From Trichoplax sp. H2 (taxonomy: Eukaryota), in assembly GCA_003344405.1 (NCBI GenBank), contig NOWV01000001.1, forward strand, positions 1,054,001 through 1,118,000: DNA of 64,000 nucleotides, read 5' to 3'. Under the pieces are notes generated by a model. That model did no database searches. It was not told where the DNA came from and saw only the letters and a list, made by a program, of their open reading frames with translations. This document shows positions 28,581 through 60,100 of the stretch, piece after piece (position 1 is the first letter of the stretch; each line of letters opens with the position of its first letter). The position numbers and the translations under genes are program-made.

Positions 28581-28741
28581 TCGGCAAGCTCTAGCTTATA
28601 TAAGTATAATAATATTAATAATTAATAGCCTCCATTTACGATTCTCGTAACTACTGTCTGTGTACAGCTAGCTGAACAAATTGATGCCTACCAAGCGTAG
28701 TAGAAAATTAAATACTAGAGCAGCATCTCAAAATTAATCAA

Positions 28742-35392: not shown

Positions 35393-37861
35393 ACTTGTTT
35401 TTTTTCATCAACTAACTTGGCTTCGGCTTTGCGTGTTAGCAATCTCTTATTTCAATTAATAGCCATCAACTTATATATCAAGTTACTCACCACAGTGTCC
35501 TTTCCATCCTTCACCGGCTTCTCCTAACATGGGACACTTTACTGCATTAACGTCACTGTGACCATTCGTATTTAGTCACTAAGCAATAAACTAACGGTTT
35601 CTTTTGCTAGATAGATGCGATACTGGAAAGTACAGTAGAATAAATACAACTCTTAGCTTGGATATTTGATCAAATAGGCTATTAAACTGCTAAAGTTATG
35701 ATTGGATGGACTTAGTTTGAGTTCTTTCAATCTAGCTCAATCATAGCAGTACACTACTGTATTTGTCCAAGTATGCTTTGATCCATTCCTGGAAGCGGGG
35801 ACTACTACGTTTTTTGTAGCATGCCATAGTCTATAGTAACATATATCCTGGTCTGTCAAGAATCGGTACAGCAGAGTATTGAACAGTGGGTCATTTATTC
35901 GCTGTACTACGTACTTACCCGGCAGTGGTATACGTCATAATATTAATGTCCGCGTCTGTCCGTCTCTAACGCCTGTCCGCGTTTCTGACGTCTGTCCTCC
36001 AGTCAATTCATTGATGCCTTGAAATTCATTAATCAATTATATACTGTATATTAAATAATTATATATATATATATGTTATATATTATACGCGTATATAAAT
36101 AAATAAATAATAATATTAAAGATGTATTCTGGTCAAAACCTTCAAATCCTGACCTAACAAGATACCTATCGATGAACTATAAAATTTTCTATTTTAGCAG
36201 CTTTTTGTCGATGGGATGTTTCTCGTTATAATATTCATTGCAGCAAACTACTGAGCTGCGAACGCTGACGTACCACCAGAAGGAGAATCTGACGTTCTCT
36301 TTCTGAACTCATCCCCGATCGTATAAACGCATCTTTATAATTCACCTTCCTTCTAGGTTTACAGTAATTTACTGTCACGATTCACTGATTTAGGGTTAGG
36401 ATTGCGCATTAACAGGATATCATTTTTCATGCAAACTAAAAGCAAAGGTTCATAGAGGTCTATTGGTGCGATTACGGTTCATTCTAAAGTATAAAAATAA
36501 ATTTATACAATTTAGGTAAGCGAAGAAATGAAATTATTATAGCTATTTTCGCTGCATTATGTAATTCATTCCAGAATATGTGCACTTTCATGACTACCTT
36601 GCATGACCCATTTACGGAAGAAACTAAGTCGTAAATAACTTGTATAGATGATAATAATATGCAATTATAATTATAAACCACCCATATTTCTACTAGAAAA
36701 TATATCATTAAATTAACTTTGCCTTTAAAAATCTTGTTGCACTATTATTTATTCATGTTATTAACGTCTTAAGATGCGGTGTTGTAGTAGCCCTAGTGTG
36801 TAAAGAATAAGTAAGAATTGATTGAAAAGGATCAAATCATGAATAGTTGCTAAATTTTCTACTTTATAACGGGTTGACATTTATAAATTAGGAATTACTA
36901 GGCGTGTGTATGTCACAGATTTATCTCACGCGTATGTTTTAAAGAACGTTAGTAATCTGTATTCTAGAAAAGCGTTACAAGACAGCTTTAACGTTATGTT
37001 GTTGCATCATATGTCTTTAATTGCATCTTCAAGAGTCCTATTATAAAATTATCGTCTAGTTCTCTATTTTGCTATCTTATGTGATAAATGTAATGTAACA
37101 AAATCTATTATGCTTATGGCTTATAAGTTAGATTGTGAGATTGTGCGTATATGTGGTAAATCTATATCAGCAGTAGCACTTATTATTTCGAGTTAAAAGT
37201 TAGCCCTTGGTAGCAGAATACGAGCGTACATACATGCAAACGATGTAATAAAGTAAAAAAGAAAAGCAAAGTTCTTGGTATAATTGTTAAGATAACTTAT
37301 CACGAACTCTACGAAGTGATTGCATTCGTATACTTAAAGCATAGATAGTAAATATTAAATAAAAGGAATCAAGAAATTTGATGGCTTACGGCTAATTTAT
37401 TCAGCTAAAATTCTCGACATGGCTCAGAAACGCTATTACAGTAAATTGTCATCTAATTCTCCTTTATTACACAGACAAGTCTAATTACACTGAATTGTAC
37501 CGTATTCATATTTGTGAATGATCATAAAAGGATCAAGAAACTACCACCTAGGAATAATTCTAATTGCCTACTGAAATCAGTTACTGCCCAAATTTATTTC
37601 ATATATCTGCAAAGCATTACTAGTGACATTATTTATGGCAGCCAGGCGAATATGGCATACAACGTACTTACAACGCCCATGATATAAGCCGTCTCCTTCC
37701 TTCCTTACTGTCCATAGTAGGGGCTACTTTAGTGTTGAGTTATCAACGGCAAAACATACATAGTAGCCTAATTCTTTATGAGAATCAAGAAGAACCTTTT
37801 CTTCTTTCCCTTACTTGTATCTTATTGGTAACAAATCGTTCTAAATTTGCCTTCTCACATC

Positions 37862-40800
37862 ATGGGCACTAATGTTAAATCTACTTATCATGAATTAATG
37901 GATGAAGCTGCTAGTCATGGTTACGATATTGCTAGTCTTGAATTTGCCCAATATCTGGACAGTCAAGATGAATTCAAGGAATATCGAGAGTTATTTTATG
38001 TTCCACGAAAGAAAACTTTGCCTCAAAGTAAGTCTGAGTAAGCCTGGAAATCAATGAAATTTGCTGTAATCACACTGCTGTATGGTACCTATTTTACTGC
38101 TGATTTTATGCTCATGAATCTGTAACGAATGCTGCATTATCGACTAGCTGTCTATACCCTTTCACAATAAATGGGAAGCTACTTCTTTTTGAATTATGGT
38201 CACTAAACCTATGTACAGTAGATGATATAATAGAATACGTAATTACATCAGCAGGCTACGTAGGGTAAAATTTAACTGCTGAATACAATTAGCCTTTTCG
38301 TAGCACGATGAACAATAACAATAAAAAAATTAGCAAGACTAAAGTCAAATTTACTATCCACAATGTGCAAAAATTTTATTTTTATCATTACGGTACGATC
38401 ACTTGAGCAAGAGTACATATCACAGCCTTACTTATTACTCCAAAGCCTCTTTGTATACAACATTTTTAGCTTCGGTATGTAGACAGAGTGTTCACACGCA
38501 GCAAAACTTGTCGCTGATTTTCCATAAGTAATGATGTGGTGGAGGTGTCAGTATTAACTACACTTACTTACTAAATGCATAGTAGTATTATTCTACAGTG
38601 GTATGACTGTCCAATGTCAAGAGATTGATGCAATTACTGTATTATTTTAGAGCAGGGCAACCCACGAAGTGTGGCTGATCGTTGAATATTTGATAAATAC
38701 AGCGCTACTTGTAATGATAATACAGCTACAGTGGTAGTTAGCAGTAATGGAAACGAAATAACCAGGCAACGTACAATTAAAGCAGCACTTTTTTAGTTTG
38801 ATACAGCAGATTAAAGGTGATCACTCATATATTTGAATTGATATACAATAGTTGAATTTCATCATTAGCTCATGCGGATATAGTCATCAATATGCAAAAG
38901 GCTGCATTATTGTGCTCCTGCATAAAGTACTTGTATATGAGTAGGTCATGTCTATGCTATAATAAAGACTTGACATTGCAACGTAATAAATATTCTTTCT
39001 TCTTGAATTGTAGCTGATTTATCCCTAGTCGATGGTGAGAGTGAGAGTGTCTATCTTCTTGGTAATTCTCTCGGCTTGCAGCCTAAGCAATCTCGACAAG
39101 ATTTAATGGAATATATGGACAAATGGGCTGAAATGTTAGTTTTTATTTATAAATACAATTTGCCATGATTCATGGTTATAAAGACTTATCCTCACTAATT
39201 TACGTATTCTTAATATATACGCATATTCCTACTATTGCATAATATCAAAAGTACTGTACAAATAAAAACATTTATTTATTATCGAAAATGATGGCATTTT
39301 ATGATGGATATGTTACGGGTAGTATTGATAATCATTATTCAAAAATATTTCACTTCTAATGAAATGATATGGATGTAATAGGGGCTTCAAGGGATATTTC
39401 CATGGAAAGCATCGGTGGATAGACCTACAGGATACAGTAGCAAAGGATATGCTATGTCCTATTGTTGGTTGGTTTAAAGATACTCCTAATATTAAATGTC
39501 CTCTTTTTTTATGGCCAAGTCACTGAATGCCATATTGTAATACTGTATAACCAAGATATCTTGAATATCTGTCATCTTTTAACTATTGCATAGTAGTTGA
39601 CTCTTTATGCAAGACTGTATATTTGCTCTAATACGTTACTGCCGCCATTTAACCTAATTTTCAGTCCCTAAGAATCATTACGGTCACGATCCTTTAGTAG
39701 TATAATGTCATACAATTGATCATTTGTAAAGGAAAATTGGTTAATTTTTAATGCCGTTGTATAAACAGTTATGCTCAATAGTAATTATAATTAGTTAGTG
39801 GTTTTAGTACTGGTAGATCATTAATTAAGATCTTCAAGGTTAATCGTAAATTCTAATCGTTAGATCCTATGATGGGTAAACGTGTATGAATGCAGTATAT
39901 TGTCTATTTGTTCGCAATGGTTATGCGTTACCAGTCTACCAGCTTGAATGTAGACACTAAAAAATTTGGTTATTGATTTGATATAGGAGCAAAGCCAATT
40001 GAAATCTGTATAATGAATTCAGTTTCCGTTAACATTCACCTATTAATGGTATGCTAACTAATATCCATCTAAATAGGATCAGTACTGTTAATAACTCCTT
40101 TGAAATAATGGTAATAATGACTATGTAACCATCTTTGTTAAATTCAACCACTTAGATATCATTTTATCAACCTACTACCGAAAGATACAAGATTCTTATT
40201 GACCACGGAGCATTTCCTTCTGACCATGTACTACATTTACAAGCGTATATAACACTAGATCACAATAAATTATAGATATTAAATAATGCTCGAAAAATTA
40301 CTTGTCTCTCTGCATTATAGTTAATGATCAATTACCTTATTAAAGTATTTTTAATCGAAATAATCATATTGAATAACAGATAATTTTAGAAAAAGCTTAC
40401 TAATCTACTATTATATGATTATTATTTTAAACCGTTCTTAGTATGCAGTCCAATCACAAATACGAATGCATGATTACGATTCAGATGAGGCAATGATACT
40501 AGTTAAAGCGCGAGATGGAGAAAATACTCTAAGAACAGAAGATATTATAGCAAAAATCAACGAATTTGGCGATGCTATTGCTATGATTTTATTACCTGGT
40601 AGGTATTTCTCTTTATTAAAATTTATTAAAAAATATGTTATTGCGACTTTAAGACGATAATACTGCTTAATATTTATAACTTCTCTTTAAAGTATGCGAA
40701 TGCCTTTTAATATAGATAAATTGCTTAATCTATATACTGTAGGCGTACAATCTTTCACTGGCCAGTTGTTTAACATCAAAGAAATTACTAAGGCAGCGCA

Positions 40801-42207
40801 TGACAAGGTAAAAAATTAGGTGGAAAAACGAACACATTAATGGCAACTGAAATCGTAGTTAAGAATGATTATTATTCAGCTACCTATGTGAAAATAGCTT
40901 AAATATTGAAAGCATTATACGGAACTTTGTGATTGAATTCATTTAAAGGGATGCTATGTAGGTTGGGATTTATGCCATGCAGCTGGTGGTGTTGAATTAA
41001 AATTACATGAATGGGATGTTGATTTCGCAGTTTGGTGTACATATAAGGTAAGATAACGCTTATTTAGGCACGATAACTGAAACTATTTCCTGACAATCTT
41101 AAATTTCATAAAAACTAAAAGTGTTGTTGATAATATAATTGTATTCGCTGCAATTTCAAGTTTAATAAAACTAAAAATGTTCTTATCGATAAAGAATTTA
41201 TGAACTAATATTAAAAGTTGCAGTGTATCCTAATTCCATTTTTTTTATACACAATGTAGCTTCTTAACACCGGTCCAGGATCGATCGGAGCATGCTTTGT
41301 CCATGAAAAATATGCATATCGAAAAGACTTTAAAAGGTTGTCAGTAAATTATTTCAATTTATGAGTCGTTCATTTATCAATAATTTTGACTTTAACGCAT
41401 TTGAACATTTAAAAGGCTTGACGGCTGGTTCGGTCATCGTTTAGAAACTAGACTTAATATGACAAATGGTAATAATAGTTGAATTTGAGATAAGGTGATA
41501 GTTAAAACATTGTTGAAAAGATTAAATTTAGTGTATATTTACTAGTTATGGAGCACGCTCCTGGTGCCTCAGGCTTTCAGCTAGCTACTACTCCTGTTGC
41601 GGATGTCGTTAGGCTCATTAGTAGTTTAGATGTAAGTTTACTTATTAACTTTATCTGTAATTACTGTTCGTTCGTGACACGTTCTTTAAGCATTGTAGAG
41701 TGGTGATTGTTAAATTTTGATTTCTAACAATAGATCTATTCTAGAGTATCTTTACCAAAGCTATTTGAAAAAGCTCGTAAAGGTGTAGTATATATGGAAG
41801 CGCTTTATCGGCACTACTTTATGAATAATGATACATCGGCTGATTGTAAGAAAGTAGAAAGTGTTGCGGAGATTATTTCACCTAGTGATCCTTGTGAGAG
41901 GGGCACTCTCTTTGCATTCAGATTTCCGGGTCGTGTTGATTTCGTTTGTGACGGACTAGCTAAAAACGGAATTGCAGTAAGATAATTTGTCATAGAGTTA
42001 ATTATTAATTTAAATTAAAATTATTTTATTGTGCGATTAGCGATCATTATAAAATCTGCTATGAATGTTATATAATTTTAGGTAACTGTCCTAAAGAGCG
42101 AAATTATTAGAGCTGGTTTTGCTCCACTATATAATTCATTCCAGGATGTACACACCTTCATAACTACTTTGCATAATCTTTTTACTCAAGAAGAGAATCG
42201 TAAATAA
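37862..42207 (+). CDS. KYNU: Kynureninase paralog A (PLP-dependent), divergent active site; multi-exon
   Basis: [70 protein letters not shown] (PLP lysine), [20 protein letters not shown]. Exons join in frame with GT-AG introns; TAA at 42205-42207. Confidence 0.93.
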
Positions 42208-42889
42208 CGAGTCTTTCCATCTACTTGAAATAGAATCAGCGGATAGTCTTTGTATAGAACTTATATGCACGTACGAAAAACTAGCATTTGCAACCGTAAC
42301 GTACGAGCGAAGATGCATACATTTATATTTTATAACTCAAGCTTGGTTTGACCGACATTACTTAATGCTTAATTAATTATAAAGCACTTCAGCTAGAAGG
42401 TATAAAATTGAATGAACCAGAGCAAAGCAATTAAATGTCTTTCTAGGTTACTTTTCATGTTAATTAAAAAAAGTTGTGGAGTCTGAAACCAAACGTGGAT
42501 CAAGATTCTAAATTAATTAATTTCATAGTATTGTTTAGGAATAGATAAAATTTTTCTACTTATGATATTATTTTATAATACTTATTTAACAAGAAATAAC
42601 AAAGTGTATTCTATGAACTTTAGTATATTCTTTATTAAATTATATTATCAGCAGGATGCTGATAATAATATGGCAAATCGGTTATTGATAAATTTCAAAG
42701 TTGAGTAGTATGCAATTTATTATTCAGTATAGTAATTTGACTGACAGGAAATGTTGTTACGGCCCCAGGATACGCGTATGGCAGTGCTTTATTTTGTATG
42801 ACGAAAATATCGATTTCAATAACAGACGTGTCTATTTGAAAGATGAAAATCATATCCTTGAAAGTGTTCATTTTCCACTACATACTCAC

Positions 42890-42909
42890 NNNNNNNNNNN
42901 NNNNNNNNN
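42890..42909. other. Assembly gap (20 N)
   Basis: Run of N characters. Confidence 1.
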
Positions 42910-43049
42910 AAATTGAATGAACCAGAGCAAAGCAATTAAATGTCTTTCTAGGTTACTTTTCATGTTAATTAAAAAAAGTTGTGGAGTCTGAAACCAAACG
43001 TGGATCAAGATTCTAAATTAATTAATTTCATAGTATTGTTTAGGAATAG

Positions 43050-43595
43050 ATAAAATTTTTCTACTTATGATATTATTTTATAATACTTATTTTAACAAGA
43101 AATAACAAAGATATTATGTCATTTTTTGACATTTTTATAGTAAGAGTATAGCATGTCATCCATATCGTTTTATAGTAAGGGTATTGCATGCCGTTCATAT
43201 CGTACGGTATATAATAAAATTTTTTTCTCCTTATGATATTATTTTATGATACTTATTTTAAAAGAAATAACAGAAAAATACTAGGTCTTTTTCTGACATT
43301 TTTATAGTAAGGGTATAGTATGCCATTCATATCGTTCGGTATGTAATAAAATTTTTCTATTTATGATATTACTTTATAACACTTATTTAACAAAAAGTAA
43401 CAAAGATATTAGGTCATTTTTTATAGTAAGGGTAAGCATGCCATTCATATCGTTCGGTATATAATAAAATTTTTCTACTTGTGATATTATTTTATGATGC
43501 TTATTTAATTAGAAATAACAGAAAGATATTAGGTCATTTTTTGACGTTTTTATATTAAGGGTATTGCATGCCATTCATATCGTTCGGTATATAAC
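43050..43595. repeat. AT-rich tandem repeat, about 4 units of ~120-165 bp
   Basis: Unit ATAAAATTTTT(T)CT...TGATATTA...AATAACA(G)AAAGATATTA...TTTTATAGTAAGGGTA...CATGCCATTCATATCGTTCGGTAT starts near 43050, 43215, 43346 and 43465. Confidence 0.9.
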
Positions 43596-44677
43596 ATTAA
43601 CTAGAGACTTGCTATTTGAAAGTTACGTATGGTTCCTATACAATTACTTACATTTAATACTGTACACGTGTACATATGGGAGTTTACATAAGAGATTTAG
43701 TAACTATGCAGCGCAGTACTGCACAGTATGTTGTAATCAATTTTTGTTTCATGTATATGTTATATATATACTGTATAACATGTGTCATATAAACTGTAAA
43801 CACGGCTTCTAAAGCTCTTAGAAATTCTCTACCTTACCGTACTAACGTGCTGTGACTACGACGGTTTTAGCTGAGAGGGCGTTTTCGTGAAACACCACCC
43901 ATTAAGAAGGTGGTGGTAATAGTAGCCATCACGTATAAAGGAGTCATCCGGTAAAAATCAATACATTAAAAGGGAAGTGGGTTTTCATTTTACTGTAAAG
44001 ACATGGCCTATTCTATGAACTTTAGTATATTCTTTATTAAATTATATTATCAGCAGGATGCTGATAATAATATGGCAAATCGGTTATTGATAAATTTCAA
44101 AGTTGAGTAGTATGCAATTTATTATTCAGTATAGTAATTTGACGGACAGGAAATGTTGGTACGGCCCCAGGATACGCGTATGGCAGTGCTTCATTTTGTA
44201 TGACGAAAATGTCGATTTCAATAACAGACGTGTCTATTTGAAAGATGAAAATCATATCCTTGAAAGTGTTCATTTTCCACTACATACTCACATATAAAGT
44301 ATCATTTAAAAGAATTTACCTAGCTGAGGATTTACATGATTTATTCCATTCTGAACGATTTAATATGCCATTGTGCACGCAATAGTACTGTAGGCGGTGA
44401 GTAGGCTGATGTTGATCACTTGGGACACATGTTCCATGCCATTGGACAACGCCCACGGCGAAGGTCGTGTCCTTCCTTCCATGCTGCCGACTTTCTAGTG
44501 AATCGTACGAAAGTGTACAGTGTACAGTGTACAATGTAGACTATAAACTACAGTACTATCTACAGGCTAAACTGATGCAATAGCCTGTCGTGTTTACCAG
44601 CCTCTTGGCCTTGCCATTTTTTTGTGCCTTGCTTTACTTCTTCTTGTTGGTATCCAACTAGCTTACCTTCTGCCATC

Positions 44678-47600
44678 ATGGGCAATGATGTCAAATCTAT
44701 TTGTTATGAATTAATGGATGAAGCTGCTAGTCATGGCTATGACATTGCTAGTTGCGAGTTTGCTCGATATCTGGATAGTCAAGACGAATTCAAGGAATTT
44801 CGAGAGTTGTTTTATGTTCCACGAAAGAAAACTTTGCCTCTAAGTATGTCTGCCTAAGTACAGCTACAATTTGAAATCATACAAGTTCATTTTAATCGCA
44901 CTCTAGTACTGCATCCACCTTTTAGCCTACTCTATCTTGCAGTTGAAGAGTCAGAGTATTGATAAGCATCATAACTTGTTGATTATTTTTTATGGACGAT
45001 TGCCTAGTCTACTATCTCATACAGTATGTACAAATTCCAAAGTACTCATGAAACACTTGAGATACTCGCAGAGTCTTAAAGTAGGGCGTGATACTGCAGT
45101 ACTGTACAAGTAGATGGTGTTACCTACAAATAAATATATTAATATTGCAGCATTGAAACTAATCCTAATTAGTACAGTATGTCTATACAATATACAATAG
45201 TTGTCTTTCATCATTAATTATTACGGATAGGATGCTCAATGTTCAGTAAGGCTGATATTGTACTGTACTGTAAAATAATAAGTGTACAATTGTGTATAAG
45301 ATTATTGTGCATTATGTACACTGTACAGTATAGGCAGATAATGAAGAAAGTTGCGATGTTATAATATTCATGAAGATTTTGTACAATCTATACTGTAGTT
45401 GATTTATCCTTGGTCGATGGTGAGAGTGAGAGTATCTATCTTCTTGGTAATTCTCTCGGCTTACAGCCCAAGCAAACTCGACAGCGTTTAATAGAACACC
45501 TGGACAAATGGGCTGAAATGTTAGTCTTTATTTACTAAAAGCGCGTATATCAGTATTGTTAAATTAAATTAAGCAACACTTGAATTATTATATAGTGGAT
45601 ATACTACACTATAACATTGTATTTATTATCAAACATTATGGATGCAAATAGGGGTATCGAAGGACAATTCCACGGGAATGATCGCTGGATTGACTTTCAG
45701 GATACGATGACTAAGGATTTGCTATGTCCTATTGTTGGTTAGTTGAAAGAAAATTGAGAATACCGCTAAAAAGAAACTTTCTCCTTCTAACTTCAATTCG
45801 CTAAATGTCATTATTATAATACGTATATAAGTTAAGATATTTTTTATATATACTTACCAAGATAGTTTGCACAGTATTTAAAACAATTTTATCCAGAATC
45901 CATTGCTGCTGTTATTGAATCTAATTTTTCAGTACTCTGGAGTCATTGGTAAAAATCTCCTTATAGTAACATAGTGGACGTACAATCTATTTCTTGTAAA
46001 AATAATTTACCTATTTGAGAATATCAATATACAAACAATTATGCCTGTCAAAGGCGGTGATATAGTGATGGTAGATCATTAAGACCTTTAAATAAATTTC
46101 ATTTATTAAAATCCTAGATCTTGTTGGGATTATATACCAGGAATTGTTTTATTTTCAATGGCTGCATTGTTGATTCATGTCTATTAGGATGAATATCGAA
46201 ATTAAAATTTTGATTACGTATCAATATAGGAGCTAAGCCTATTGAAATCTGCGTAATGAATGCAGTTACTGTTAACATTCACCTGCTAATGGTATGCTAA
46301 ATAACAATTATAAAACAAAATTAATACTATCAATACTTCTATCAAATAGATATAACGACTATATAACTGCATTTAACTACTTAGATATCTTTTTATCAAC
46401 CTACTGCCGAAAGATGCAAGATTCTTATTGAAGACGGAGCATTCCCTTCTGATCATGTATATGCCAACACTTAGTTATATCCATAATTACAGTAAATTAT
46501 TTACTTCAAATTATATTCGAAGAGTTTTCATTTATTCGATAAATAATAATTAATTATATAATTAAGGCACTTTTAATTAAAATGAATGCTAATCTAGTAT
46601 TATATTTTAAACAATTCTCAGTATGCAGTCCAATCACAGATACGAATGCGTGGTTATGATCCAGATGATGCAATGATAATAGTAAAAGCACGAGATGGAG
46701 AAACTACTATAAGAACGGAAGATGTAATAGCCAAGATAAACGAATTTGGTGATTCTATTGCTATGATTTTATTACCTGGTATGTATTTTTGCTTTGATAC
46801 CTAAATAGGTAGGCTAATACTAGGCGATCATTTTAATGAAGTATTATAGTTTAACATTTATTCTTGTCTTTTAAAGAGCGCAACGCCTCTTCAATTTAAC
46901 CAATTTGTTCATTTCGTATAGGAGTGCAATTTTATACTTGTCAGTTGTTTGATATTAAAGAAATTACTAAGGCAGCACACGATAAGGTTAAAATTAGGTT
47001 ATATTAAGCGTACACTGATAACAAATTTAGTCTTGGTAAATAATAATATTTTTACTACTGCATATAGCCTTATTAAAAAATAACTACTCTGCTTAAACTT
47101 CACAGTGATGACAGTGATTGTGATATTATATTAAACTTTGTAATTTTATTATTTATTTAAAGGGGTGCAATATAGGTTGGGATTTATGTCATGCGGCTGG
47201 TGCCGTTGAATTAAAATTACATGAATGGGACGTTGATTTTGCTGTTTGGTGCTCTTATAAGGTAGACTAATCCTCTTATGTTATTTTCTTTATTTGAGGT
47301 GATTTCGTCTATCTCCAATTGAATATCCACGAAATTGTAGTTGTCCAGAAAATAATTTACATATTGCAGTATAACCTAATTTCTTATCTCGCATCATGCA
47401 TAATGCAGTACCTAAATAGCGGTCCAGGATCGGTTTCAGCATGTTTTGTACATGAAAAGCATGCACATCGGAAAGATTTTAATAGGTTGCCAACATGTCA
47501 TTATCATTTGAGTAACTTGAAAGATTGTAAATAGATTATTTCAATTTATGAGTTGTTTGTTTATCAGTAATTTTGACTTTAATGCATTTGATCGTTTGAA

Positions 47601-48406
47601 AGACTTGAAGGCTGGTTCGGTCATCGTTTAGAAACCAGATTTGATATGTCAAACGGTAATAACGATTGAATATTTGATGACGCGTTGACAAAAATTATTT
47701 AAAAGATTAAGTTTAGCGTATGTTTACTAGTCATGGAGAGTATTCCTGGCGCATCAGGCTTTCAAATATCTAATGCACCTGCTGCTGAAGTTGTTAAACT
47801 CGTTAGTAGTTTAGATGTAAGTAAATTCACCGATTCGCTGTCATAACTTTAATCTCAGCTTATTTGTGATATGTTATTTAAATATCATATCATATACAAT
47901 AATGTAGTAGAGCAGTACAGTATATTAAATTTTTTTTTAAACAATAGATCTACTCAAGAGTATCACTACCGAAGCTATTTGAAAAAGCTCGCAAAGGTGT
48001 GATATATATGGAAGCACTTTATAGGCATTACTTTATGAATAATGCCACATCGACTGACTGTAAGAAAGTAGAGACTGTTGCGGATATTATTTCACCTACT
48101 GATCCTTTTGGAAGGGGCAATCACTTAGCATTCAAATTTTCGGGTGGCGTTGATTATGTTTGTGACGGACTGGCAAAAAGAGGAATCGTTGTAAGATGAA
48201 TTTTTTAGTTAAATTAAAAGTATTTTTTATTACACGATTGGCGATCATTCTAAAGTACAGAAATGAATGATATACAATTTCAGGTGGATGTTCGAAGAAA
48301 TGAAGTTATTAGAGCTAGTTTCGCTCCATTGTATAATTCATTCCAGGACGTTTACACCTTTATAACTACTTTACATGACCTGTTTACTCAAGGAAAGAAG
48401 TCATAA
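44678..48406 (+). CDS. KYNU: Kynureninase paralog B; same exon structure as paralog A
   Basis: [100 protein letters not shown] at 48404-48406. Confidence 0.93.
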
Positions 48407-50013
48407 ATACATACATTGACTTGTAGATATCATAGACTTTCTATCTATCCGCTATAGAACTTATAGACAGTCCTTTTAGTATGTAATAATAATTCGATTT
48501 GTAATCTCGATATGAATGGATTTTATTTAACTCAAGTTGATGTTTTATTTTTGCTAGACGGTACGAAGTTGAATTATCCTTGTGAATTAAATATTAAATT
48601 ACGTTATTACTCATATTAGTGACTTAGGATATAGCAATAGCGAATCGAGTGGTAATGAATCCGCATGGGATTATTGAAAATTATCGAGATATTGGTAGTT
48701 GCTGAGCTTCGTACTTTCCGACTGATTAGAGAATAGAAGTTGTTTTACAGAAGAAATACTGTATTACATTCTATGGCATCTATTGTTTAACTATTAATCT
48801 ATTTTCTATACAAGACTTTGTAGCTAAAAAACGGCTTTACTCTGGTAGCGTAAAACTGTATGTTAAGATACTATTAGAAGATAAATGACGCAACGTTATG
48901 ATGTGACGTAATGCTTCAAATTGATATCATGTTTTATTTATATCAGCGTTTCAAACTACTCGAATGTAATTAAATTTTTTATAACTTAATAAATCTAACG
49001 GACACTTGGATACAGCGCTTTTAATTTGCAATTTCCATGCCATATGATATAGTCATATCCGTGGAAACATCTTACTGCCGATAGCCTTGTCTGATACTTC
49101 AAAGTTAAAAAGTCATATAATCTAAGGGTCTAAGTAATAACTTGCCGTAGGTATACGATCAAATACTTAATAATTATCTATGAGCATATTATTGTTTTAA
49201 TAGACTCTTATGGGATTTAACAGTAAATAAAATGGTTAAAGATTACAATTTTTATGTAAGTTTTAATGGAGAGTTCACAATAATTTTAAAATTGAATGAA
49301 TGATACTGATACACATAGAATGTGGAATATCTTATATTCCATAGCCTAGACAAATGCTATATTTTGGTATTTAGTATAAACTCATCATAAAACTTGATCA
49401 CTGTTCCTCAAAAGGTATGCGATCGATATTAGCTATTAATTATAATTATCTATGAGTATATGCATATTTTCAAATTTTATATTAGAGGCCGCCATAGAAT
49501 TTACCTTTAACTCACTTAAATGAGCATCAACCAGAATAATACATTAATTAATCTTTCACGAATAATACTAAATCATAAATTCATGAGCATTTAGATGCTA
49601 AAATTTTAAATTCCTGTATCATAATCAAATTTTAGTTATAGTCTGCATACTGAAAATTTGCTCTTAACAAGCATCTCTATAAATCTTGTATGGAAGATAC
49701 TTCACGGATTTGTGGGTATAGACATTTTAACGATAAAACTAAACACCAATGATGCTCGGTATATTATCTTTTCTTACAAAGTAATAGATTGGGTATATTA
49801 AGTTAGCATTAAGGATTTATATGTTCTTATTAAATGATAGGATCTGTATCTGCATTCTACTAGAATCAGTCTATTAACAATTTAATCTACTTTATTTAGT
49901 TCTGAGACGATCGAATTATACAGTATCCACAAATATCATATTAAATTAAATAAAGAAGTTGATCCAGTACGAATAATTTGGTTGATGAATTTTAAATAAC
50001 TTTTGATTTTGCT

Positions 50014-53000
50014 CTATAATAATCTCTCTGTGTCTTCAGGAGTACTATTGAATCGTCGTCTAGTTCTCCTTCTACCTTTCTTATACTCATGAATTATTTT
50101 TCGAATGACCAAAAAGGATTTAATTTGCGACCATTCGAAAATTTCCCAAAATGTTAAGAAACTACCGCCCAGGAATAATCCCAATTGACCACCAATATCA
50201 CCTGAAATATATTACATCGCCATCCACATATATTAGAAATTCGTTTCGATCCAAAATGATTAACAATCACTATGAGTATAACATACTTATAAATTGATTT
50301 ACGTCGTATGCTTTCTTTTCTTTAAATGTTGTATAAGAAAGATCGTCGTAGAATAAGTCTAGAAAGACATAATTATCTCTAGATTGGCAGCAGTTAGAAT
50401 GGAAAAATTAGAAATAAAGTTTAGCAATGTTTATACTAGGTGGTACTATGTATGTTGTAATATCGACGAATCTGTAGTAAAGACATAGTTCAGTTATTAT
50501 ATTGAATAGCTTTAATATCCATATAATAGCAATAAAGCTTTAAAATGGATATTTTACCTTATATATTCGCCCATTGAAATATTGTTATACTTTAAGAAAT
50601 CGATTTCTAATTCATTTAATCCGTAACGATGAGCAGCAAACCTTGATGTTTGTCTGAGGGGAATTTCAGCATAAGTTACATGAGGATTAAATGATTTAAT
50701 CCTGCAATCGTTAGGACAGTTGCAAGTAAAGTTTTCCGGTGTACTTAGGCCTTAGTTAGAAATAAGTATGAGAATTAATAGAGGTCATAATTTCAATTTT
50801 GTTGACATTTCAGTAGTACAAGTATCGACTACATTAGTTAGAAATCTGTAGATTATCTATTCGTTGTCTATTTATCTACTTTTGTTGACTATAACTATCT
50901 GTTCGTTCGAAATAGATGCTAGAACTCCTAGTAATTATCTCTAATATTGTGCAATTATTAAACTTTCGACATATTAACAGCTTACCTAAGTATTTAGTAA
51001 CGCATTTCTTAATGTGCTCAGGTGAGCAGATTGGAGATGAGCCTGTATCATTGACGCGTAAATTAGATGGAAATTAATAATTTACAAATATCATAAAATA
51101 GGAAATCACAATAATAATAAAATTAAATTTAAAGTTGTTGTTTTTGTTTTTATGTATGTTGTTTTATATATGCAGACCATAAAATACCGAAGTATTTACT
51201 TTGGTAATACATAACATATACCTTGCATCAAAATATTACGGTACCGCACTGTAGCTTAGTGATTAGTCTATCTCTAGTTTTAACCGTAATTGGTTCGGCA
51301 AAATATTAGTGCATAATTCATACCAATCTCTATATTCTAATATCTCAAGATATCATCCACAACTTGAAGAAATTAAAATAAGTTAGAAGCATATTAAAAT
51401 GCGATGAAAACAATGTACCAGGCATATATGGTGTCCGACAATCACATCGTCTTCTATAGCTATCAGCTAAACATTCTAATTGGCAGGAAGCTCGACTATA
51501 AGATTTAAAATATTTTAACTTCTTCTGACCACAATTTCCCCACGGCGGTTTTAAGAAATCGGACTACACCAAAAGAAAATAAGAGGTATAATTTATTTCA
51601 TACGGATTTACAGTAGACCCTTTTTAAATATAAATTGCTATATCCTTGCATGGCTTTAAAAGATAAATGTAAAAATACATATTTCTCCATTTATTACCTC
51701 TGTGTACAGTAATTTTGTATAAGCGTGGTAGCCGGGCGGAACTGCAATACCTTCAGCATTGATATCAGGAGGTTCAAACTGATTATGGACGCGAAATTTT
51801 ATACCGATATCCGGATCGGGATTAAGATGAGTATATTCTTCTTCTTCGATATTTAGAATTAATTTTAAACCATAACGGCTGCCAGGTCTTTTTTGATAGA
51901 GAATAGGCGCATCAGCTCCTACGGAAATAAAAAGCAATCAGTTGAAGATGTGAATATGAGAAAATAATTTGATCTTAAGTTTGAAATTTCATCTTAAAAT
52001 ACTATGGGAAATAATGTCGAATAACATCGTTTATAATCACGATCAGATGTAATAGCTATCTGGTCTTTGATTCTGACTATACATTATTATGCTCTACTTA
52101 TGAGATAATATTTATATTTAAAAGGGTATAAAGCTTTGATTGATGATATAAGAAAAATAACGAATATGAATGCGTTAAACGGTTCTGCAAGAAAGGATAA
52201 ACATGAATAAAAGATATATGGCAATCTTCTATATCCAAAGCAATTAGCTGACTAAGCAAAACTATGATTAGTCCTGACTTTAGAATAGCTGTTTTATCTA
52301 GAAATTGAGCAATAAACATAAATAAGATAGAAGATACTAATAAAAGTGTTGGTTAGGAATTAAGTCAAAACTAAAGCATGTACCTAATCATAAATTATAA
52401 TTTTAATATCTAAAAACTATCCACTTATAAAGAAAATCGTTACGTAGATTAGCTTTAGAATCGCCTTTAAAGATAGTCTGCCTGACCTGCATTAAAAGTA
52501 AAACAAGAGCCATAATCTGTATATATCCTTGTGAAATTCTCTATACTGCAAGGCTGGCGTCCATCGTTCCAGGTGCAATGTTTAATAAATACCTCAGCTT
52601 GGTTACTTTTAACGTTTAGAAATTGCGTGATATCAAAAGTAATGTTATCATAAAGTTCGAAGGATATATTTTTTAAGTAGTCATTCCACTCTTTTCCTGT
52701 TTTGCCATTGAGGCCAGTGAATATTTGGTTGTTATCGGTTGCAGTAAATAAATTAACTAAATAACCAATGCGATGCCAATCACCATATTCCAATGAAGAA
52801 AATCGAAATCGATTGAAATTGCAAACCGATACAGCTGGAAATTTTAATTTTTTACTGATGGTGTAATTAATTGCAGCATTGGTGGGATAGGTAAAGAGAT
52901 AGTCATAGCGTTGAACGCATGTGATAATGCACAAAATAGTCATCGTTAAGGTCAATAGAAACCAAACCGCATGTCGAACTCGACCACCACGACCAAATAT

Positions 53001-54052
53001 ACGAACTATACCATTACAGGATGTCTGTAAGGCGAATCGATCATCATAATTCGAATCATCACTGAATTCAAATTTATCTTTGGTGCTAATGTGGAGATTT
53101 TCCGCATAGGATGCAGAGACTGTAGTTTGGTTTGCTTCCTCAAAGACAGAGCTATCATCATTATCATCATAAGGAGTTAGGATAACTAGAGTATCCAAGA
53201 ATTAATATTAGTTATGTGATAAAAGTATTTATAATGCTACTCTTGGTTAGACTTATTTATAAACTAGCTTAAACTTACTATCTTCAAACTCCTTGTCTGC
53301 CTTAACCTTGGAATTTTCTGCACAAGCCAAGGATAGCATAGGATGTTTTACTTTCTCAACAGCAGGGTAATCTTCTTGATCATCACCAGGGGTTAGAAGA
53401 ACTGAGATATCCAAGTATTCAAGTTATTCAATGCATTGTAGATTATCTCACTTCAATTTATCGTGTAGAAATTAGATTAAATTTACCGTTTTCAAATACT
53501 TTATCTCTCTTAACTTTAGAGCTTTCTATACAGGACAAGGACGGTATAGGTTGCTTTACTGCCTTAAAAACAGATCTATCTTCCTGGTCTTCATAAGAAG
53601 TTAGAATGAGTAGGGTATTTTTAATTGGTATATAAAGGCAACACTATCTTTATTTAATATAATATTACAAGTTAGGGCAATCTTACGATATTGATACTCT
53701 TTTTCTATCTCAAATTTGGAGTCTTTTGCGTTGGGTGAGGATGGTGTGGTTAGTTCTATTTTTTCAAATACAGAGTAATCTTCTTGATCTTCAGGAGTTA
53801 GAAGATCTAGGATGTTCATATAATTACGTTACTAAAAGCGTTTATAGTGTCTTTACTGTTAAAATTAACTGTCTGAGAAAAATTTCTCAAGATTACCGTC
53901 TTTAAATTCTTTGCCTGTCTTAACTTTAAAATTTCTTGTATAAAGTGAAGATGCAATAGGCTTTTCACTTCCTATCAATAGTCGTCAGATTAGTTGGGTA
54001 GTTGTAAAATTATCTTAGCTCGAAACATACCTTCATTAAGTTCTTCATTCAT
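50014..54052 (-). CDS. Degenerin/ENaC (ASIC-like) sodium channel with repeat-extended N-terminus; multi-exon
   Basis: TM1 AVWFLLTLTMTILCII, FPAVSVCNFN, YGSCFTFN, GLKLILNIE, PPWGNC, full thumb Cys set, TM2 SDIGGQLGLFLGGSFLTFWEIFE, TAG at 50014-50016. The ATG at 54052 is inferred from in-phase upstream exons and is less certain than the core (50014-53185). Confidence 0.9.
53060..53971 (-). repeat. Tandem exon+intron duplications (~200-bp period) encoding a ~40-aa repeat
   Basis: Homologous segments at 53971-53897 (half unit), 53806-53687, 53609-53487, 53401-53279 and the start of the large exon from 53185. Consensus is roughly (L/I)LTP..DQED.SVFE......S......SKVK.DKEFE. Confidence 0.85.
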
Positions 54053-57000: not shown

Positions 57001-57131
57001 TTAATATTGCACTTATATCCATGAAGGTGATCTTAATCTAGGGAAAGATACACGTATAACTTAGAAAGGTCTAATTACAATTTAAAATTACTTATTCGTA
57101 TCAGATTTTCTCTGCCTCTGAACTTGTAAAG

Positions 57132-60100
57132 ATGACTACTAATCCATCGGACGATTCTGATGATAGCAACAGCTTAGCCAGCTTTGATTTGGAGGAACAT
57201 TTTGCTAATGTTACCAGTTGTCATGGAATGATTCATATTTTCGATCATAAAACTTCGTTTTTAAGGCGTTATGTTTGGGGAATCGCAACTTTTGCCGCTT
57301 TTACAGCTTGTATTATTGGTTGTATCAATTTGTTACATAATTTATTAAGCCATCCAACTAATATCTCTGTGAAAATTCATCATACCAATAAAATGTTATT
57401 TCCCGCAGTGACATTATGCAATTTTAATCAATTTTCAAGAACATTAATCTCGCATAAGGATATTCGGCATTTAGATACAGTCTTGAGTGCATATAATCAC
57501 GATCATACTATACCAAAGGAGGACTTAAAAGAAGCTGAAGATTATTTTAAATCTAAAATTCATGGCCACTTTGATTTTAGCCAATATAACCAAGAGCTTG
57601 GCTTACAAAAAGAAGATTTAATTTTATCTTGTACTTGGAATGGCGAAAAGTGTGGCTCTAAAAATTTTAGTCGAGTTTTTACATCTTATGGAAACTGCTA
57701 TACTTTTAACGGAGGTAAAATAAGTTTGGGATCAATATTTTCTCTACAATCTGCTTCACTTATATTGATGCATTATATATATATATATATCCTTAGATCA
57801 AGGCTGCATATTTTATTTTACTTAAATCATATTATTTTAAGTCTATTTTGGATAACATCGTAGGTTAACCTACCTGTTTCTTTCGGATTCATCTTAGGTT
57901 CGGCAAATCATCCTCTACTAAACCAGCATGGTCGAGGTGCCGCTCATGGTCTGAGTTTAATCCTTAATATTGAACAGTATAAATATACACCGGAGTTGAT
58001 GGTAGGTGCTCCTAATGTGGGTATACGCTGTTCAATTCATTACTACAAATCGTTACCACGAATGGAATCTCAAGGAATCGCTATACCTCCAGGTGCTCAT
58101 GCCTACGCGGCTATACCTGGAACAGAGGTAATTTATGATTAAGCGATTAGTCATGGGATTAAATAGTTTTTATATGCTAGTTACTCAACAATTTTAGCAA
58201 ATACACATGCCTGATGAGATTGATTATACTGTGGATTTACATTACAAAGACTATAACTAAAATCGATCAACAATACACACATGTATACCTCGTACTTTGG
58301 AAGATTTGTAGTTAAATTTAAATCTTTTAGTAAATTGCGTCCCGAAAGATGGTAGACCAAGTCATTCGATGTAGTTAGGCTAAAGGCTCCATAATGCAGT
58401 ATAATAGGTAACATTTTTATGTTAGAAATTTTGTACTATTTGATAAATTCAACTAATTGATGCAATAGAAAGTATTTAGGCCTTGGGTTTTCATAGTGTA
58501 ATAAAAATATAATCGAATAAAACACCAGTTGTCTATCAAGCGAAATATCGATCAAGACAAAAATAGCTGTCGCTCCTGCGGAATATTGATCTATCTATTG
58601 CTTGAAATTGCGGTTTAACGGTAGGAAACTATTACTATTATCGTTAGGTAACCAATTATCAAAAGAAGCCATGGGGTCAATGCGGTGAGAAAAAGCTCAA
58701 ATATTACAAATATTATTCCATGTCTGCCTGCCTGCACGAAGATGAAACTCTCTTTGCGGAAACAACTTGTCAATGCCGTGATCCTCGCTTACCGGGTATA
58801 GCAGTAGATTCTATGGAATTTTTGTTTTAAATATAACTAATTTGGAATGCTTCTAATTGTGTTATTTTTTACGATATTATCACATTGATCTATTTGTTAC
58901 AATTATATCTTCAGTATTAATTATTGCGATTTAAATACTACTAGGGAATGAAAAAGCTTGCACACCGATACAAATGTTAGAATGTCTCATTCCGGCCATG
59001 AGTAAGTATAACTTCAAATTTTGAAAGGAGATATTTTAATAGTGTCATACGGTAGTGTTCTATATTGGGATAATATCTGTATCCTAGGAGCAAAAAATAG
59101 ATATCTTTTTCCGTTACATTGTGTCTTCTATACTGCTGTATAAATACAAATTCTAACTGTACCGATAAAGTAACAAAAATTACTCAATTATAGTATGGAC
59201 AAAGTTCCATAATGTTGAGAAATTACTGCTAATGGACATGGTCCTTGGCTGTGATACGATTCATCATCCTTTCTTCCTAGTACTCTTCTCTCTCGAAACC
59301 ATGACATTTTTCGTACTTGTATATGCGTAGACAGTCATGTTGAATTTTCTCCATGTTGGCCCGATAATCATCTTTGAGTTTTAGTTGTGCACCTTTGGCA
59401 ATATTGTAACAGATTTAGCTAGATATCTAGAATTTTAATACTGTAATATTTTAGGCAGAGAATCGAGTTTTTTCTTTTACGACCCGACTCATACACGGGT
59501 TTACGGACCCTATATGATGGCTATTTCAAACTTATAGACATTACTATCTTAACGCGGAATACCTTTAGTTTAGTTTATCTGAGTCGACCGTTTTGAATCA
59601 AATTTATATTTTATATGCGCATTCGGAATATATATAGCAGCCATTCAAGGTATCAAATACTTCCTTTCTTTCAGAAACGCTTTAAAAGGACATTTTTTAA
59701 CATAAGTGTCTATGTTGTCTGGCAATTTTGTTCCTATAAAAATAATGAACTGTTTAAAAATATCTATTCTATAACTAAAGGTCGATATCGAGAACAAGAT
59801 CGTAATTTATCTAGCTGTCCCGAGGTTTGCGAACGCGTAGAATATGTCCCACAAGTTTCTTATGCTAAAATTCCAGCTAAAATTATGGCAGAAGAAATTG
59901 CATCAAAATATAACCTCCATCAGGTTCACAAGAAAGCCATAATTGAAGGTGGTATAGTAGATAATAGTACATCGGTAAAGCAATTTATCAGGTTAGCAGC
60001 AACTTCGTAATACCTACTGTTTAATGTTTATGTTCGTATGATTGTCCAAGCTACGCGTAATAAATATGTATAGATGATTGATTTCTACATTAATTTAATC

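What the first reader, a model, noticed from the sequence alone, without database searches (positions are those of the whole stretch)
37862..48406. Tandem kynureninase paralogs differ at the substrate-specificity residues; paralog A has a bacterial-like set
Seen: at the human H102-equivalent position, paralog A reads GFKG-Y-F (TAT 39395-39397) and paralog B reads GIEG-Q-F (CAA 45665-45667). At S332/N333, A reads GFQL-A-T-TP (41584-41589) and B reads GFQI-S-N-AP (47769-47774). Recalled knowledge: animal KYNU uses H102/S332/N333 to prefer 3-hydroxykynurenine, Pseudomonas-type enzymes have W/G/T and prefer unsubstituted kynurenine, and swapping these residues shifts preference. Inference: A (aromatic/small/Thr) may have converged on a kynurenine-to-anthranilate activity while B stays closer to the 3-hydroxykynurenine/NAD type. 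That would be a split tryptophan pathway in an animal. The identical intron positions point to local duplication rather than horizontal transfer. Neither copy has His102, so both may have altered specificity.
Basis: partly seen in the sequence, partly recalled or inferred. Interest (0 to 1): 0.72.

Follow-up and report, generated by a model that had tools for sequence, protein, structure and literature searches.

The report
Trichoplax kynureninase copy with rebuilt pocket
The simple sea animal Trichoplax has two active side-by-side copies of a tryptophan-breakdown enzyme: one looks like the usual vitamin B3 (NAD)-making form, while the other has a rebuilt substrate pocket and probably cuts a different molecule, which a simple enzyme assay could test.

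Summary
Two intact 13-exon kynureninase genes lie in tandem: A (37862-42207) and B (44678-48406). They are 79% identical, share all intron positions, are both spliced in RNA contigs, and match Trichoplax sp. H2 records. At human H102/S332/N333, A reads Y/A/T and B reads Q/S/N. No third, His-type copy was found. The tree and introns point to local duplication, not transfer; dN/dS is 0.20. TDO, KMO, HAAO and QPRT are present, so B most likely makes 3-hydroxyanthranilate for NAD. 'Bacterial-like' is only half right. Aromatic-102 does co-vary with Thr333 in nature, and Y/A/T are the single-base steps toward W/G/T. But A alone also lost F225, Y277, F314, D426 and R428, which P. fluorescens, the engineered human kynurenine specialist and 7 of 7 natural aromatic/Thr enzymes keep (aromatic at 225 and 277). 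All PLP and catalytic residues are intact and A is still constrained. Best reading: A is a neofunctionalised lyase for a ring without the 3-hydroxyl, most likely kynurenine to anthranilate (about 45%). Another aryl substrate (20%) or a weakened generalist (22%) remain open. Published mutants show H102W/N333T alone lowers activity, so the motif cannot settle it.

The parts
37862..42207 (+). Kynureninase paralog A, 13 exons: 37862-38027, 39014-39134, 39382-39467, 39987-40048, 40156-40227, 40442-40598, 40743-40807, 40949-41047, 41260-41336, 41416-41468, 41546-41631, 41734-41976, 42082-42207; 470 aa
   Evidence: identical to RDD47874.1; TIGR01814 372 bits against a cut-off of 246; spliced RNA contigs
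44678..48406 (+). Kynureninase paralog B, 13 exons: 44678-44843, 45399-45519, 45652-45737, 46230-46291, 46385-46456, 46622-46778, 46922-46986, 47163-47261, 47409-47485, 47603-47655, 47731-47816, 47948-48190, 48284-48406; 469 aa
   Evidence: identical to RDD47795.1; TIGR01814 411 bits; 11 spliced joints displayed
39395..39397 (+). A: Tyr at human His102 / P. fluorescens Trp64 (ring-stacking residue)
41584..41589 (+). A: Ala-Thr at human Ser332-Asn333 (3-hydroxyl recognition site)
40751..40753 (+). A: Ser at human Phe225 (Tyr or Phe in 143 of 149 diverse homologues, Ser in none)
41042..41047 (+). A: Tyr275 and the PLP-binding Lys276, intact
41260..41262 (+). A: Leu at Tyr277 (Tyr or Phe in 149 of 149 diverse homologues)
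41453..41455 (+). A: Leu at Phe314 (hydrophobic substrate-ring contact)
42085..42093 (+). A: Thr at Asp426 and Leu at Arg428 (small-domain strand above the pocket)
42109..42111 (+). A: Arg434 (substrate carboxylate anchor), intact
45665..45667 (+). B: Gln at His102
47769..47774 (+). B: Ser-Asn at Ser332-Asn333 (canonical 3-hydroxykynurenine type)
36517..36639 (+). Orphan, degenerate copy of the last kynureninase exon with part of its intron (79% to B, 72% to A; small deletion near Asp426, Arg434 changed); remnant of a third tandem copy
42405..44291 (.). Intergenic stretch with a 20-N gap (42890-42909), near-identical duplicated blocks either side of it and a roughly 118-bp tandem repeat (43299-43594); partly an assembly overlap
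   Evidence: an X7 contig runs from 42404 straight to 42910

Best explanation
A His102/Ser332/Asn333 kynureninase duplicated in tandem in the placozoan lineage. B kept the housekeeping job: cleaving 3-hydroxykynurenine to 3-hydroxyanthranilate and alanine for de novo NAD, with Gln as a milder stand-in for His102. A kept the PLP chemistry (K276, D250, D168, H253, F165, Y275, W305, S75, R434) but rebuilt the aromatic-ring pocket. Asn333 to Thr and Ser332 to Ala remove the hydrogen-bond site for the 3-hydroxyl, and His102 to Tyr adds an aromatic stacking face. F225S, F314L, D426T, R428L and Y277L make the pocket roomier and less charged. A therefore most likely cleaves a kynurenine without the 3-hydroxyl, most simply L-kynurenine to anthranilate plus alanine, giving a KMO-independent branch. 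Shown: gene structure, transcription, residue positions, fold, purifying selection, faster change of A, presence of the pathway genes. Inferred: all substrate preferences and the order of changes.
For: (1) PMC11329768 passages name H102, N333, F314, W305, S75, Y275, H253 and R434 as substrate contacts and N333/Y275 as the hydroxyl network. A changed 3 of these 8 against 5 of 63 other conserved columns (Fisher p=0.04). (2) In 134 of 149 diverse representatives with both positions filled, aromatic-102 and Thr333 co-occur 7 times against 7/7/113 (p=6e-5, not corrected for kinship). (3) His (CAT) is the only sense codon one step from both copies' codons. Tyr, Ala and Thr are single-base steps from His, Ser and Asn, while Trp and Gly are not. 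(4) A is constrained, not decaying: pairwise dN/dS 0.20 (0.15-0.27), dS 0.51; 8 of about 70 ancestrally conserved columns lost against 26-37 expected under neutrality; H1 and H2 differ at 1 of 389 compared residues of A. (5) A changed faster than B: branch 0.18 against about 0.07; more A-unique changes with 8 of 8 outgroups, p<0.05 in 6 of 8; 7 A-only against 1 B-only losses at 79 columns conserved at 90% or more. (6) The genome has HAAO, QPRT, KMO and several TDO loci, so one copy must handle 3-hydroxykynurenine, and B has the nearer pocket. (7) In the PMC10580291 supplement one TDO sits in the 'unknown_1' cell module in three placozoans, while KMO sits in other modules in H2 and H23; this fits kynurenine made apart from KMO. 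(8) Both copies are spliced in three RNA or RNA-like runs.
Against: All 7 natural aromatic+Thr enzymes keep F314, S332, D426, R428, an aromatic 277 and an aromatic 225. 1QZ9 and the engineered specialist 7S3V keep F314, D426, R428, Y277 and Tyr225. A has none of these, so it matches no known kynurenine specialist. Tyr102 in natural homologues never came with Thr333 (0 of 7). H102W/N333T alone gives 0.3-fold kynurenine activity on the human enzyme and cut the activity of the 93D9 variant 113-fold; F225Y accompanies kynurenine-improved variants, whereas A has Ser there. B also lacks His102 and carries G228C, and both share further unusual changes (L137V, A252C, N257G/A, P437F) on a long stem of 0.98, so B's specificity is inferred too. 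The enrichment test (p=0.04) is weak. Neither gene appears in any cell-type gene module of the supplement. No use for anthranilate in placozoans is known to me. No docking or kinetics could be run.
Confidence: 0.45

Rival explanations
1. A is a kynureninase-fold lyase re-tuned to a different substrate: a ring-substituted kynurenine from diet or microbes (halogenated, N-formyl), another aroyl-alanine, or a cysteine S-conjugate. B alone does kynurenine-pathway work.
For: A lost residues shared by both known specificity classes (F225, Y277, F314, D426, R428) while keeping all catalytic residues and purifying selection. The losses enlarge and de-charge the pocket. PMC9191678 places the 427-436 stretch directly above the substrate pocket, and PMC5986058 lists P. 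fluorescens Y228 (= Y277) among family-specific positions. A classic kynurenine formamidase was not clearly found, which leaves N-formylkynurenine conceivable. Side activities of kynureninases on such substrates are recalled, not read here.
Against: The Tyr/Ala/Thr changes follow the known kynurenine-type direction. No candidate substrate is documented in placozoans. The formamidase search was inconclusive, not negative; the supplement names an 'arylformamidase' orthogroup with one member in each placozoan.
Confidence: 0.2
2. A is a weakened, partly redundant generalist under relaxed selection; the pocket changes are tolerated damage, not adaptation.
For: Faster amino-acid change than B; 16 of 79 strongly conserved columns changed against a median of 2 in 245 homologues; motif mutations in the human enzyme mostly lower activity; a decayed third copy nearby shows birth and death at this locus; Hoilungia has only one annotated copy.
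Against: Intact frame and splice sites at dS 0.51; far fewer conserved-site losses than neutrality predicts; losses lean towards ring-contact positions and spare all PLP residues; no excess amino-acid difference between H1 and H2 (1 of 389 against 6 of 457 for B; p=0.13).
Confidence: 0.22
3. Both copies are near-equivalent generalists and differ mainly in expression; the residue differences matter little.
For: A generalist human variant exists with equal activity on both substrates (93D9), and both copies carry F103/H104 as in that variant. Both lack His102.
Against: Strong asymmetry at conserved pocket columns (7 A-only against 1 B-only); loss of Asn333, the hydroxyl contact, in A only.
Confidence: 0.08
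4. A is catalytically inactive and kept as a structural or regulatory subunit, for example in A/B heterodimers, since the active site is built from both chains.
For: Many pocket losses; the PMC11329768 figure legend marks active-site residues as coming from two monomers.
Against: Every PLP-binding and catalytic residue is kept, which is unusual for a pseudo-enzyme. Heterodimer formation was not tested.
Confidence: 0.05

Closest known systems
Human kynureninase KYNU (PDB 2HZP, 3E9K), 3-hydroxykynurenine-preferring
   Same: Fold (TM 0.92, rmsd 1.5 A for A), 42-43% identity in the structural alignments, all PLP and catalytic residues; B keeps S332, N333, F225, Y226, Y277, F314, D426, R428.
   Different: Neither copy has His102 (A Tyr, B Gln); A also lacks S332, N333, F225, Y277, F314, D426 and R428; two expressed genes rather than one.
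Pseudomonas fluorescens kynureninase (PDB 1QZ9), kynurenine-preferring
   Same: A has Thr at T282, an aromatic residue at W64 and a small residue at G281.
   Different: Only 22-25% identical; Tyr and Ala instead of Trp and Gly; 1QZ9 keeps the aromatic 225, Y277, F314, D426 and R428 equivalents that A lost. A arose by local duplication of an animal gene.
HsKYNase_66 (PDB 7S3V), laboratory-evolved human kynurenine specialist (PMC11329768, passages and section 6 read)
   Same: A eukaryotic scaffold carrying aromatic-102, Phe103 and Thr333; A's best sequence and VIA hit by a negligible margin.
   Different: 7S3V has Trp102, keeps Ser332, F314, D426, R428 and Y277, and has F225Y; A would be a natural, independent and more drastic solution.
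Paired inducible (kynurenine) and constitutive (hydroxykynurenine) kynureninases of filamentous fungi such as Neurospora (recalled; search returned nothing on it)
   Same: A eukaryote with two kynureninase genes that split catabolic and NAD roles.
   Different: Independent duplication; the fungal active-site residues were not examined here.

Membership tests
Kynureninase (TIGR01814; Pfam Aminotran_5 + KYNU_C) | Score above the curated cut-off | tested here: met
   A 372.4 and B 411.1 bits against 246.4; both Pfam domains
Kynureninase (TIGR01814; Pfam Aminotran_5 + KYNU_C) | Fold-type I kynureninase structure | tested here: met
   Model of A: best hits 3E9K, 2HZP, 7S3V, 1QZ9, Z 46-53 against 36 or less for other families; B not modelled
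Kynureninase (TIGR01814; Pfam Aminotran_5 + KYNU_C) | PLP and catalytic residues S75, F165, D168, D250, H253, Y275, K276, W305, R434 | tested here: met
   All present in A and B
Kynureninase (TIGR01814; Pfam Aminotran_5 + KYNU_C) | Hydrolytic cleavage of a kynurenine to an anthranilate plus alanine | not testable with these tools
   Needs an enzyme assay
3-hydroxykynurenine-preferring (His102/Ser332/Asn333) class | His102 | tested here: not met
   A Tyr, B Gln; Gln occurs in 1 of 149 representatives and 4 of 93 short homologues
3-hydroxykynurenine-preferring (His102/Ser332/Asn333) class | Ser332 and Asn333 in B | tested here: met
3-hydroxykynurenine-preferring (His102/Ser332/Asn333) class | Ser332 and Asn333 in A | tested here: not met
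   Ala and Thr
3-hydroxykynurenine-preferring (His102/Ser332/Asn333) class | Genome encodes KMO, HAAO and QPRT | tested here: met
   supplement rows
Kynurenine-preferring (Trp102/Thr333) class | Thr333 in A | tested here: met
Kynurenine-preferring (Trp102/Thr333) class | Trp102 in A | tested here: not met
   Tyr; natural aromatic+Thr enzymes have Trp (3) or Phe (4), none Tyr
Kynurenine-preferring (Trp102/Thr333) class | Remaining pocket conserved (aromatic 225 and 277, F314, D426, R428) | tested here: not met
   All five changed in A; kept in 1QZ9, 7S3V and 7 of 7 aromatic+Thr homologues
Kynurenine-preferring (Trp102/Thr333) class | Higher kcat/Km on kynurenine than on 3-hydroxykynurenine | not testable with these tools
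   Needs kinetics
Horizontally acquired bacterial kynureninase | Branches with bacterial sequences and lacks host-type shared introns | tested here: not met
   A is sister to B inside the eukaryote clade; 12 introns shared with B

The most novel reading that the evidence does not exclude
Paralog A is a naturally evolved animal enzyme with a new specificity on the kynureninase scaffold: either a kynurenine-to-anthranilate specialist reached by a route (Tyr/Ala/Thr plus loss of F225, Y277, F314, D426, R428) unlike bacterial or laboratory solutions, or a lyase for substituted kynurenines. Together with the expanded TDO family and a TDO-marked cell type, it would define a second, NAD-independent tryptophan branch in placozoans.
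Probability: 0.55. Interest if true: 0.68.

Novelty: new variant of a known kind. Interest (0 to 1): 0.52.

Why it matters
PMC11329768 states that all eukaryotic kynureninases carry H102 and N333, and that the laboratory needed these two changes plus a network of others to make a human kynurenine-degrading enzyme, which is pursued for cancer immunotherapy. Here an animal gene pair, 79% identical, brackets that switch naturally. About 99 substitutions separate the two, so the pair is a ready test of how specificity changes on a eukaryotic scaffold. If A prefers kynurenine, placozoans have a dedicated anthranilate branch; I recall none in another animal and found none in the searches run. If it prefers something else, it is a new enzyme activity. 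The genes themselves are already annotated as kynureninases; what is new is the pocket.

Tried and rejected
(1) Assembly artefact or two alleles: rejected. dS is 0.51 and introns are about 69-89% alike in aligned columns; both genes also exist in T. adhaerens H1 records and in RNA contigs.

(2) A third canonical copy: none. TIGR01814 gave 8 matches of 10 candidates and a His-type marsupial query 10 of 12, all inside A or B; the supplement lists two H2 genes. Exon-by-exon searches give lower bounds.

(3) Loss of His102 because KMO was lost: raised when a bacterial KMO query and PF01494 found nothing relevant, then rejected. A shorter query and the VioC family found C286, where 15 collinear segments cover the KMO profile, and the supplement lists one KMO in each of four placozoans.

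(4) Missing formamidase making N-formylkynurenine the substrate of A: inconclusive. No cyclase-type KynB (0 candidates). PF20434 gave 26 matches, of which the 20 fetched are mostly carboxylesterases. A recalled five-residue formamidase motif gave 4 matches, none in a convincing coding context. The candidate on C1 is a hydrolase with a long hydrophobic insert and only a weak match to insect formamidase 4E11.

(5) Cell-type expression of A versus B: neither is in the gene-module table; contig depth cannot rank genes, so it is not used. Run X5 showed unspliced, DNA-like cover and was set aside.

(6) Sequences of Hoilungia or Cladtertia orthologues: not among the hits, so the duplication could not be dated and no branch dN/dS was run.

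(7) A 16-position 'pocket' tally in which A ranked first of 236 used positions picked after seeing A; it is circular and not relied on.

(8) The careful tree did not finish; the quick tree is cited, and it used 61 of the 272 proteins then held.

(9) A PDB search with exon 12 alone found nothing useful. The ESM Atlas returned only kynureninase clusters.

(10) Papers that added nothing on the pocket: PMC4217691, PMC7844877, PMC13629015, 10.1101/2025.04.18.649542 (passages). No passage on D426 or R428 was found, so their role is inferred from conservation and neighbourhood. Earlier scan notes held nothing on this locus. No complex prediction was run.
Full report
What is there. The region holds two complete kynureninase genes in tandem on the + strand. 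A spans 37862-42207 and B 44678-48406, each with 13 exons; all 24 introns are GT-AG, and the 12 positions and phases agree between the copies. The spliced proteins (470 and 469 aa, 370 of 469 identical) are the Trichoplax sp. H2 records RDD47874.1 and RDD47795.1, both annotated 'Kynureninase'. T. adhaerens H1 has both genes too: B as TRIADDRAFT_28018, and A split into models 58135 and 58136, the first of which runs into intron 2, so residue 102 of H1's A is not visible there. Neighbours are a prolyl-tRNA-synthetase-like gene, a DCAF15-like gene and two amiloride-sensitive channel genes, with no functional link.

Expression. Contigs of four runs were laid on 36300-48700. X14 (on record as RNA), X7 and X13 (RNA by guess) show spliced joints at my predicted boundaries. 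Four joints of A and 11 of B are among the 15 displayed, 12 more are hidden, and the piece table also joins A's exons 12 and 13. X5 gave unspliced, DNA-like cover. Contig depth cannot rank the genes.

Residue mapping. HMMER alignments to 3E9K, 2HZP, 7S3V and 1QZ9 are gap-free around the three sites in the human structures. A has Tyr/Ala/Thr and B Gln/Ser/Asn at human H102/S332/N333 (P. fluorescens W64/G281/T282). The model of A is confident (pLDDT 94.6) and superposes on 3E9K at TM 0.92, rmsd 1.5 A. Among the 118 nearest non-Trichoplax homologues, H102 and N333 are invariant and S332 is 117 of 118. In 149 representatives at 50% clustering the triad is H-S-N in 101; Ala332 occurs in none. Exceptions do exist in the eukaryote part of the tree among unnamed proteins (P0153 Q-S-N, P0174 Y-S-N, P0138 H-S-S), so Trichoplax is not the only eukaryote-type sequence off the motif, though every named animal among the 118 has His and Asn.

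More than the triad. Using all 267 homologues, 79 columns are conserved at 90% or more. A differs at 16 and B at 10, against a median of 2 among 245 near-complete homologues (3 reach A's count, 14 reach B's). Seven losses are A-only (E161D, Y277L, F314L, S332A, N333T, D426T, R428L), one is B-only (G228C), and nine are shared columns, H102 among them. A also has Ser at F225, where 143 of 149 have Tyr or Phe. Both copies keep S75, F165, D168, D250, H253, Y275, K276, W305 and R434.

What the papers say about these positions. PMC11329768 (passages and section 6 read) names H102, W305 and F314 as ring contacts, N333/Y275 as the hydroxyl network, R434 as the carboxylate anchor, and F225 as close to the active site. 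PMC9191678 (passages) places residues 427-436 directly above the pocket. PMC5986058 (passages) lists the Y277 equivalent among kynureninase's conserved or family-specific positions. I found no passage on D426 or R428. The S332G part of the triad and the specificity-reversal result of Lima et al. 2009 are recalled; I saw only that paper's citation.

Is A bacterial-like? Partly. Aromatic-102 and Thr333 co-vary among 134 representatives with both sites filled (7, 7, 7, 113; p=6e-5, kinship not corrected). His (CAT) is the only sense codon one step from both TAT and CAA, so each copy probably lost His separately. Tyr, Ala and Thr are one base from His, Ser and Asn, while Trp and Gly are not. A has therefore moved in the kynurenine-type direction by the shortest route. 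But all 7 natural aromatic+Thr enzymes keep F314, S332, D426, R428 and aromatic residues at 225 and 277; none of 7 Tyr102 enzymes has Thr333; and 1QZ9 and 7S3V keep the same pocket residues. In the human enzyme, H102W/N333T alone gives 0.3-fold kynurenine activity, and a His/Asn variant can be a full generalist. The motif suggests loss of 3-hydroxyl selectivity more firmly than it suggests good kynurenine turnover.

Origin and selection. In a quick IQ-TREE tree of 61 of the 272 proteins held, A and B form one clade (SH-aLRT 100) on a long stem (0.98) inside a eukaryote clade (99), away from bacteria. A's branch is 0.18 and B's about 0.07. Relative-rate counts favour A with 8 of 8 outgroups (p<0.05 in 6); polarised changes are 54 against 29 (p=0.008). 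Over 464 codons dS is 0.51 (0.41-0.64), dN 0.104 and dN/dS 0.20 (0.15-0.27). If dS is split evenly, neutrality would have removed 26-37 of about 70 ancestrally conserved columns from A; 8 were lost. Three of 8 literature-named substrate contacts changed against 5 of 63 other columns (p=0.04), a weak enrichment. H1 and H2 differ at 1 of 389 compared residues of A and 6 of 457 of B. A is thus a maintained, faster-evolving enzyme with a selectively altered pocket. A decayed third copy of the last exon just upstream shows that the locus has duplicated more than once.

Pathway context. No further kynureninase was found in G000. HAAO, an intronless QPRT, KMO and TDO matches at three places on one contig are present. 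Supplement file 4 of PMC10580291 (rows only; the file was cut when stored, after this sheet) lists one KMO, HAAO and QPRT in each of four placozoans, 14 TDO rows, and kynureninases as H2 x2, H1 x3 models, Hoilungia x1 and H23 x2. File 3 places one TDO in the 'unknown_1' cell module in H2, H13 and H23, and KMO in other modules in H2 and H23, but lists neither kynureninase. As a side check on what the His type does, 69 of 80 Bacteroidota loci fetched with a His/Ser/Asn query carry KMO within 4 kb (the residues of each locus were not checked). With KMO and HAAO intact, one copy must cleave 3-hydroxykynurenine, and B is the better candidate.

Mechanism and odds. Most likely (0.45) B serves NAD synthesis and A cleaves kynurenine without the 3-hydroxyl to anthranilate and alanine by the standard PLP ketimine route (PMC7461572, passages). 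Rivals: a new aryl substrate (0.20), a weakened generalist (0.22), equivalent copies (0.08), an inactive subunit (0.05). Substrate assignments are inference; nothing here measured activity or docked a ligand.

Novelty. The genes are annotated and the copy number sits in a published supplement. I found no paper on their active sites: 'kynureninase' with 'Trichoplax' gave one unrelated paper, and searches gave none on placozoan kynureninases. The library lacks most subscription papers, and bioRxiv supplements were closed. Verdict: a real and directly testable new variant of a known enzyme family.

Noticed in passing
window 36461-36639: Orphan, degenerate copy of kynureninase exon 13 with part of its upstream intron, closer to B (79%) than to A (72%); no other exons of this copy were seen in the window.
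   Followed up: partly
window 42405-44291: Blocks 42405-42604 and 42607-42889 recur at 42910-43110 (99.5%) and 44009-44291 (98.6%) around a 20-N gap; an RNA-like contig of X7 reads from 42404 straight into 42910-43200, so part is an assembly overlap and A's 3' UTR probably extends past 43200.
   Followed up: partly
G000:C619 (about 93.3 kb, 389.5-391.4 kb, 399-401 kb; loci L019-L021): Tryptophan 2,3-dioxygenase is multi-copy in placozoans (14 rows over four species in the PMC10580291 supplement); one copy scores 0.96-0.97 in the 'unknown_1' cell-type module of H2 and H23. L020 holds a 1.2-kb near-duplicate (92%).
   Followed up: partly
L011 (G000:C499:17125-17925): QPRT/nadC is a single 305-codon open frame with no intron, unusual in this intron-rich genome; origin not examined.
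   Followed up: no
L126 (G000:C1:1218346-1219425): Alpha/beta-hydrolase with a long hydrophobic insert between its oxyanion and nucleophile motifs; possibly the gene called 'arylformamidase' in the supplement, but only weakly like insect formamidase. No classic kynurenine formamidase was clearly found.
   Followed up: partly
window 44766, 44786, 44816, 47775 (gene B); 41831, 41935, 42151 (gene A): Amino-acid variants between H1 and H2 or among RNA contigs: B R30Q, E37K, V47I, and Thr (H1) versus Ala (H2) next to Asn333; A D381V, V416I, H453Y, all outside the pocket.
   Followed up: partly
window about 50000-53201 (-) and 57075-60747 (+): Two divergently oriented amiloride-sensitive sodium channel (DEG/ENaC) genes.
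   Followed up: no
window 27437-28581: Array of 83-121-bp imperfect repeats upstream of a prolyl-tRNA-synthetase-like gene.
   Followed up: no
proteins P0184, P0201, P0226, P0252 (F-S-T) and P0246, P0249, P0264 (W-S-T): Unnamed long-branch kynureninases of the eukaryote/Bacteroidota-like type with aromatic-102 and Thr333: further natural candidates for switches to kynurenine preference.
   Followed up: no
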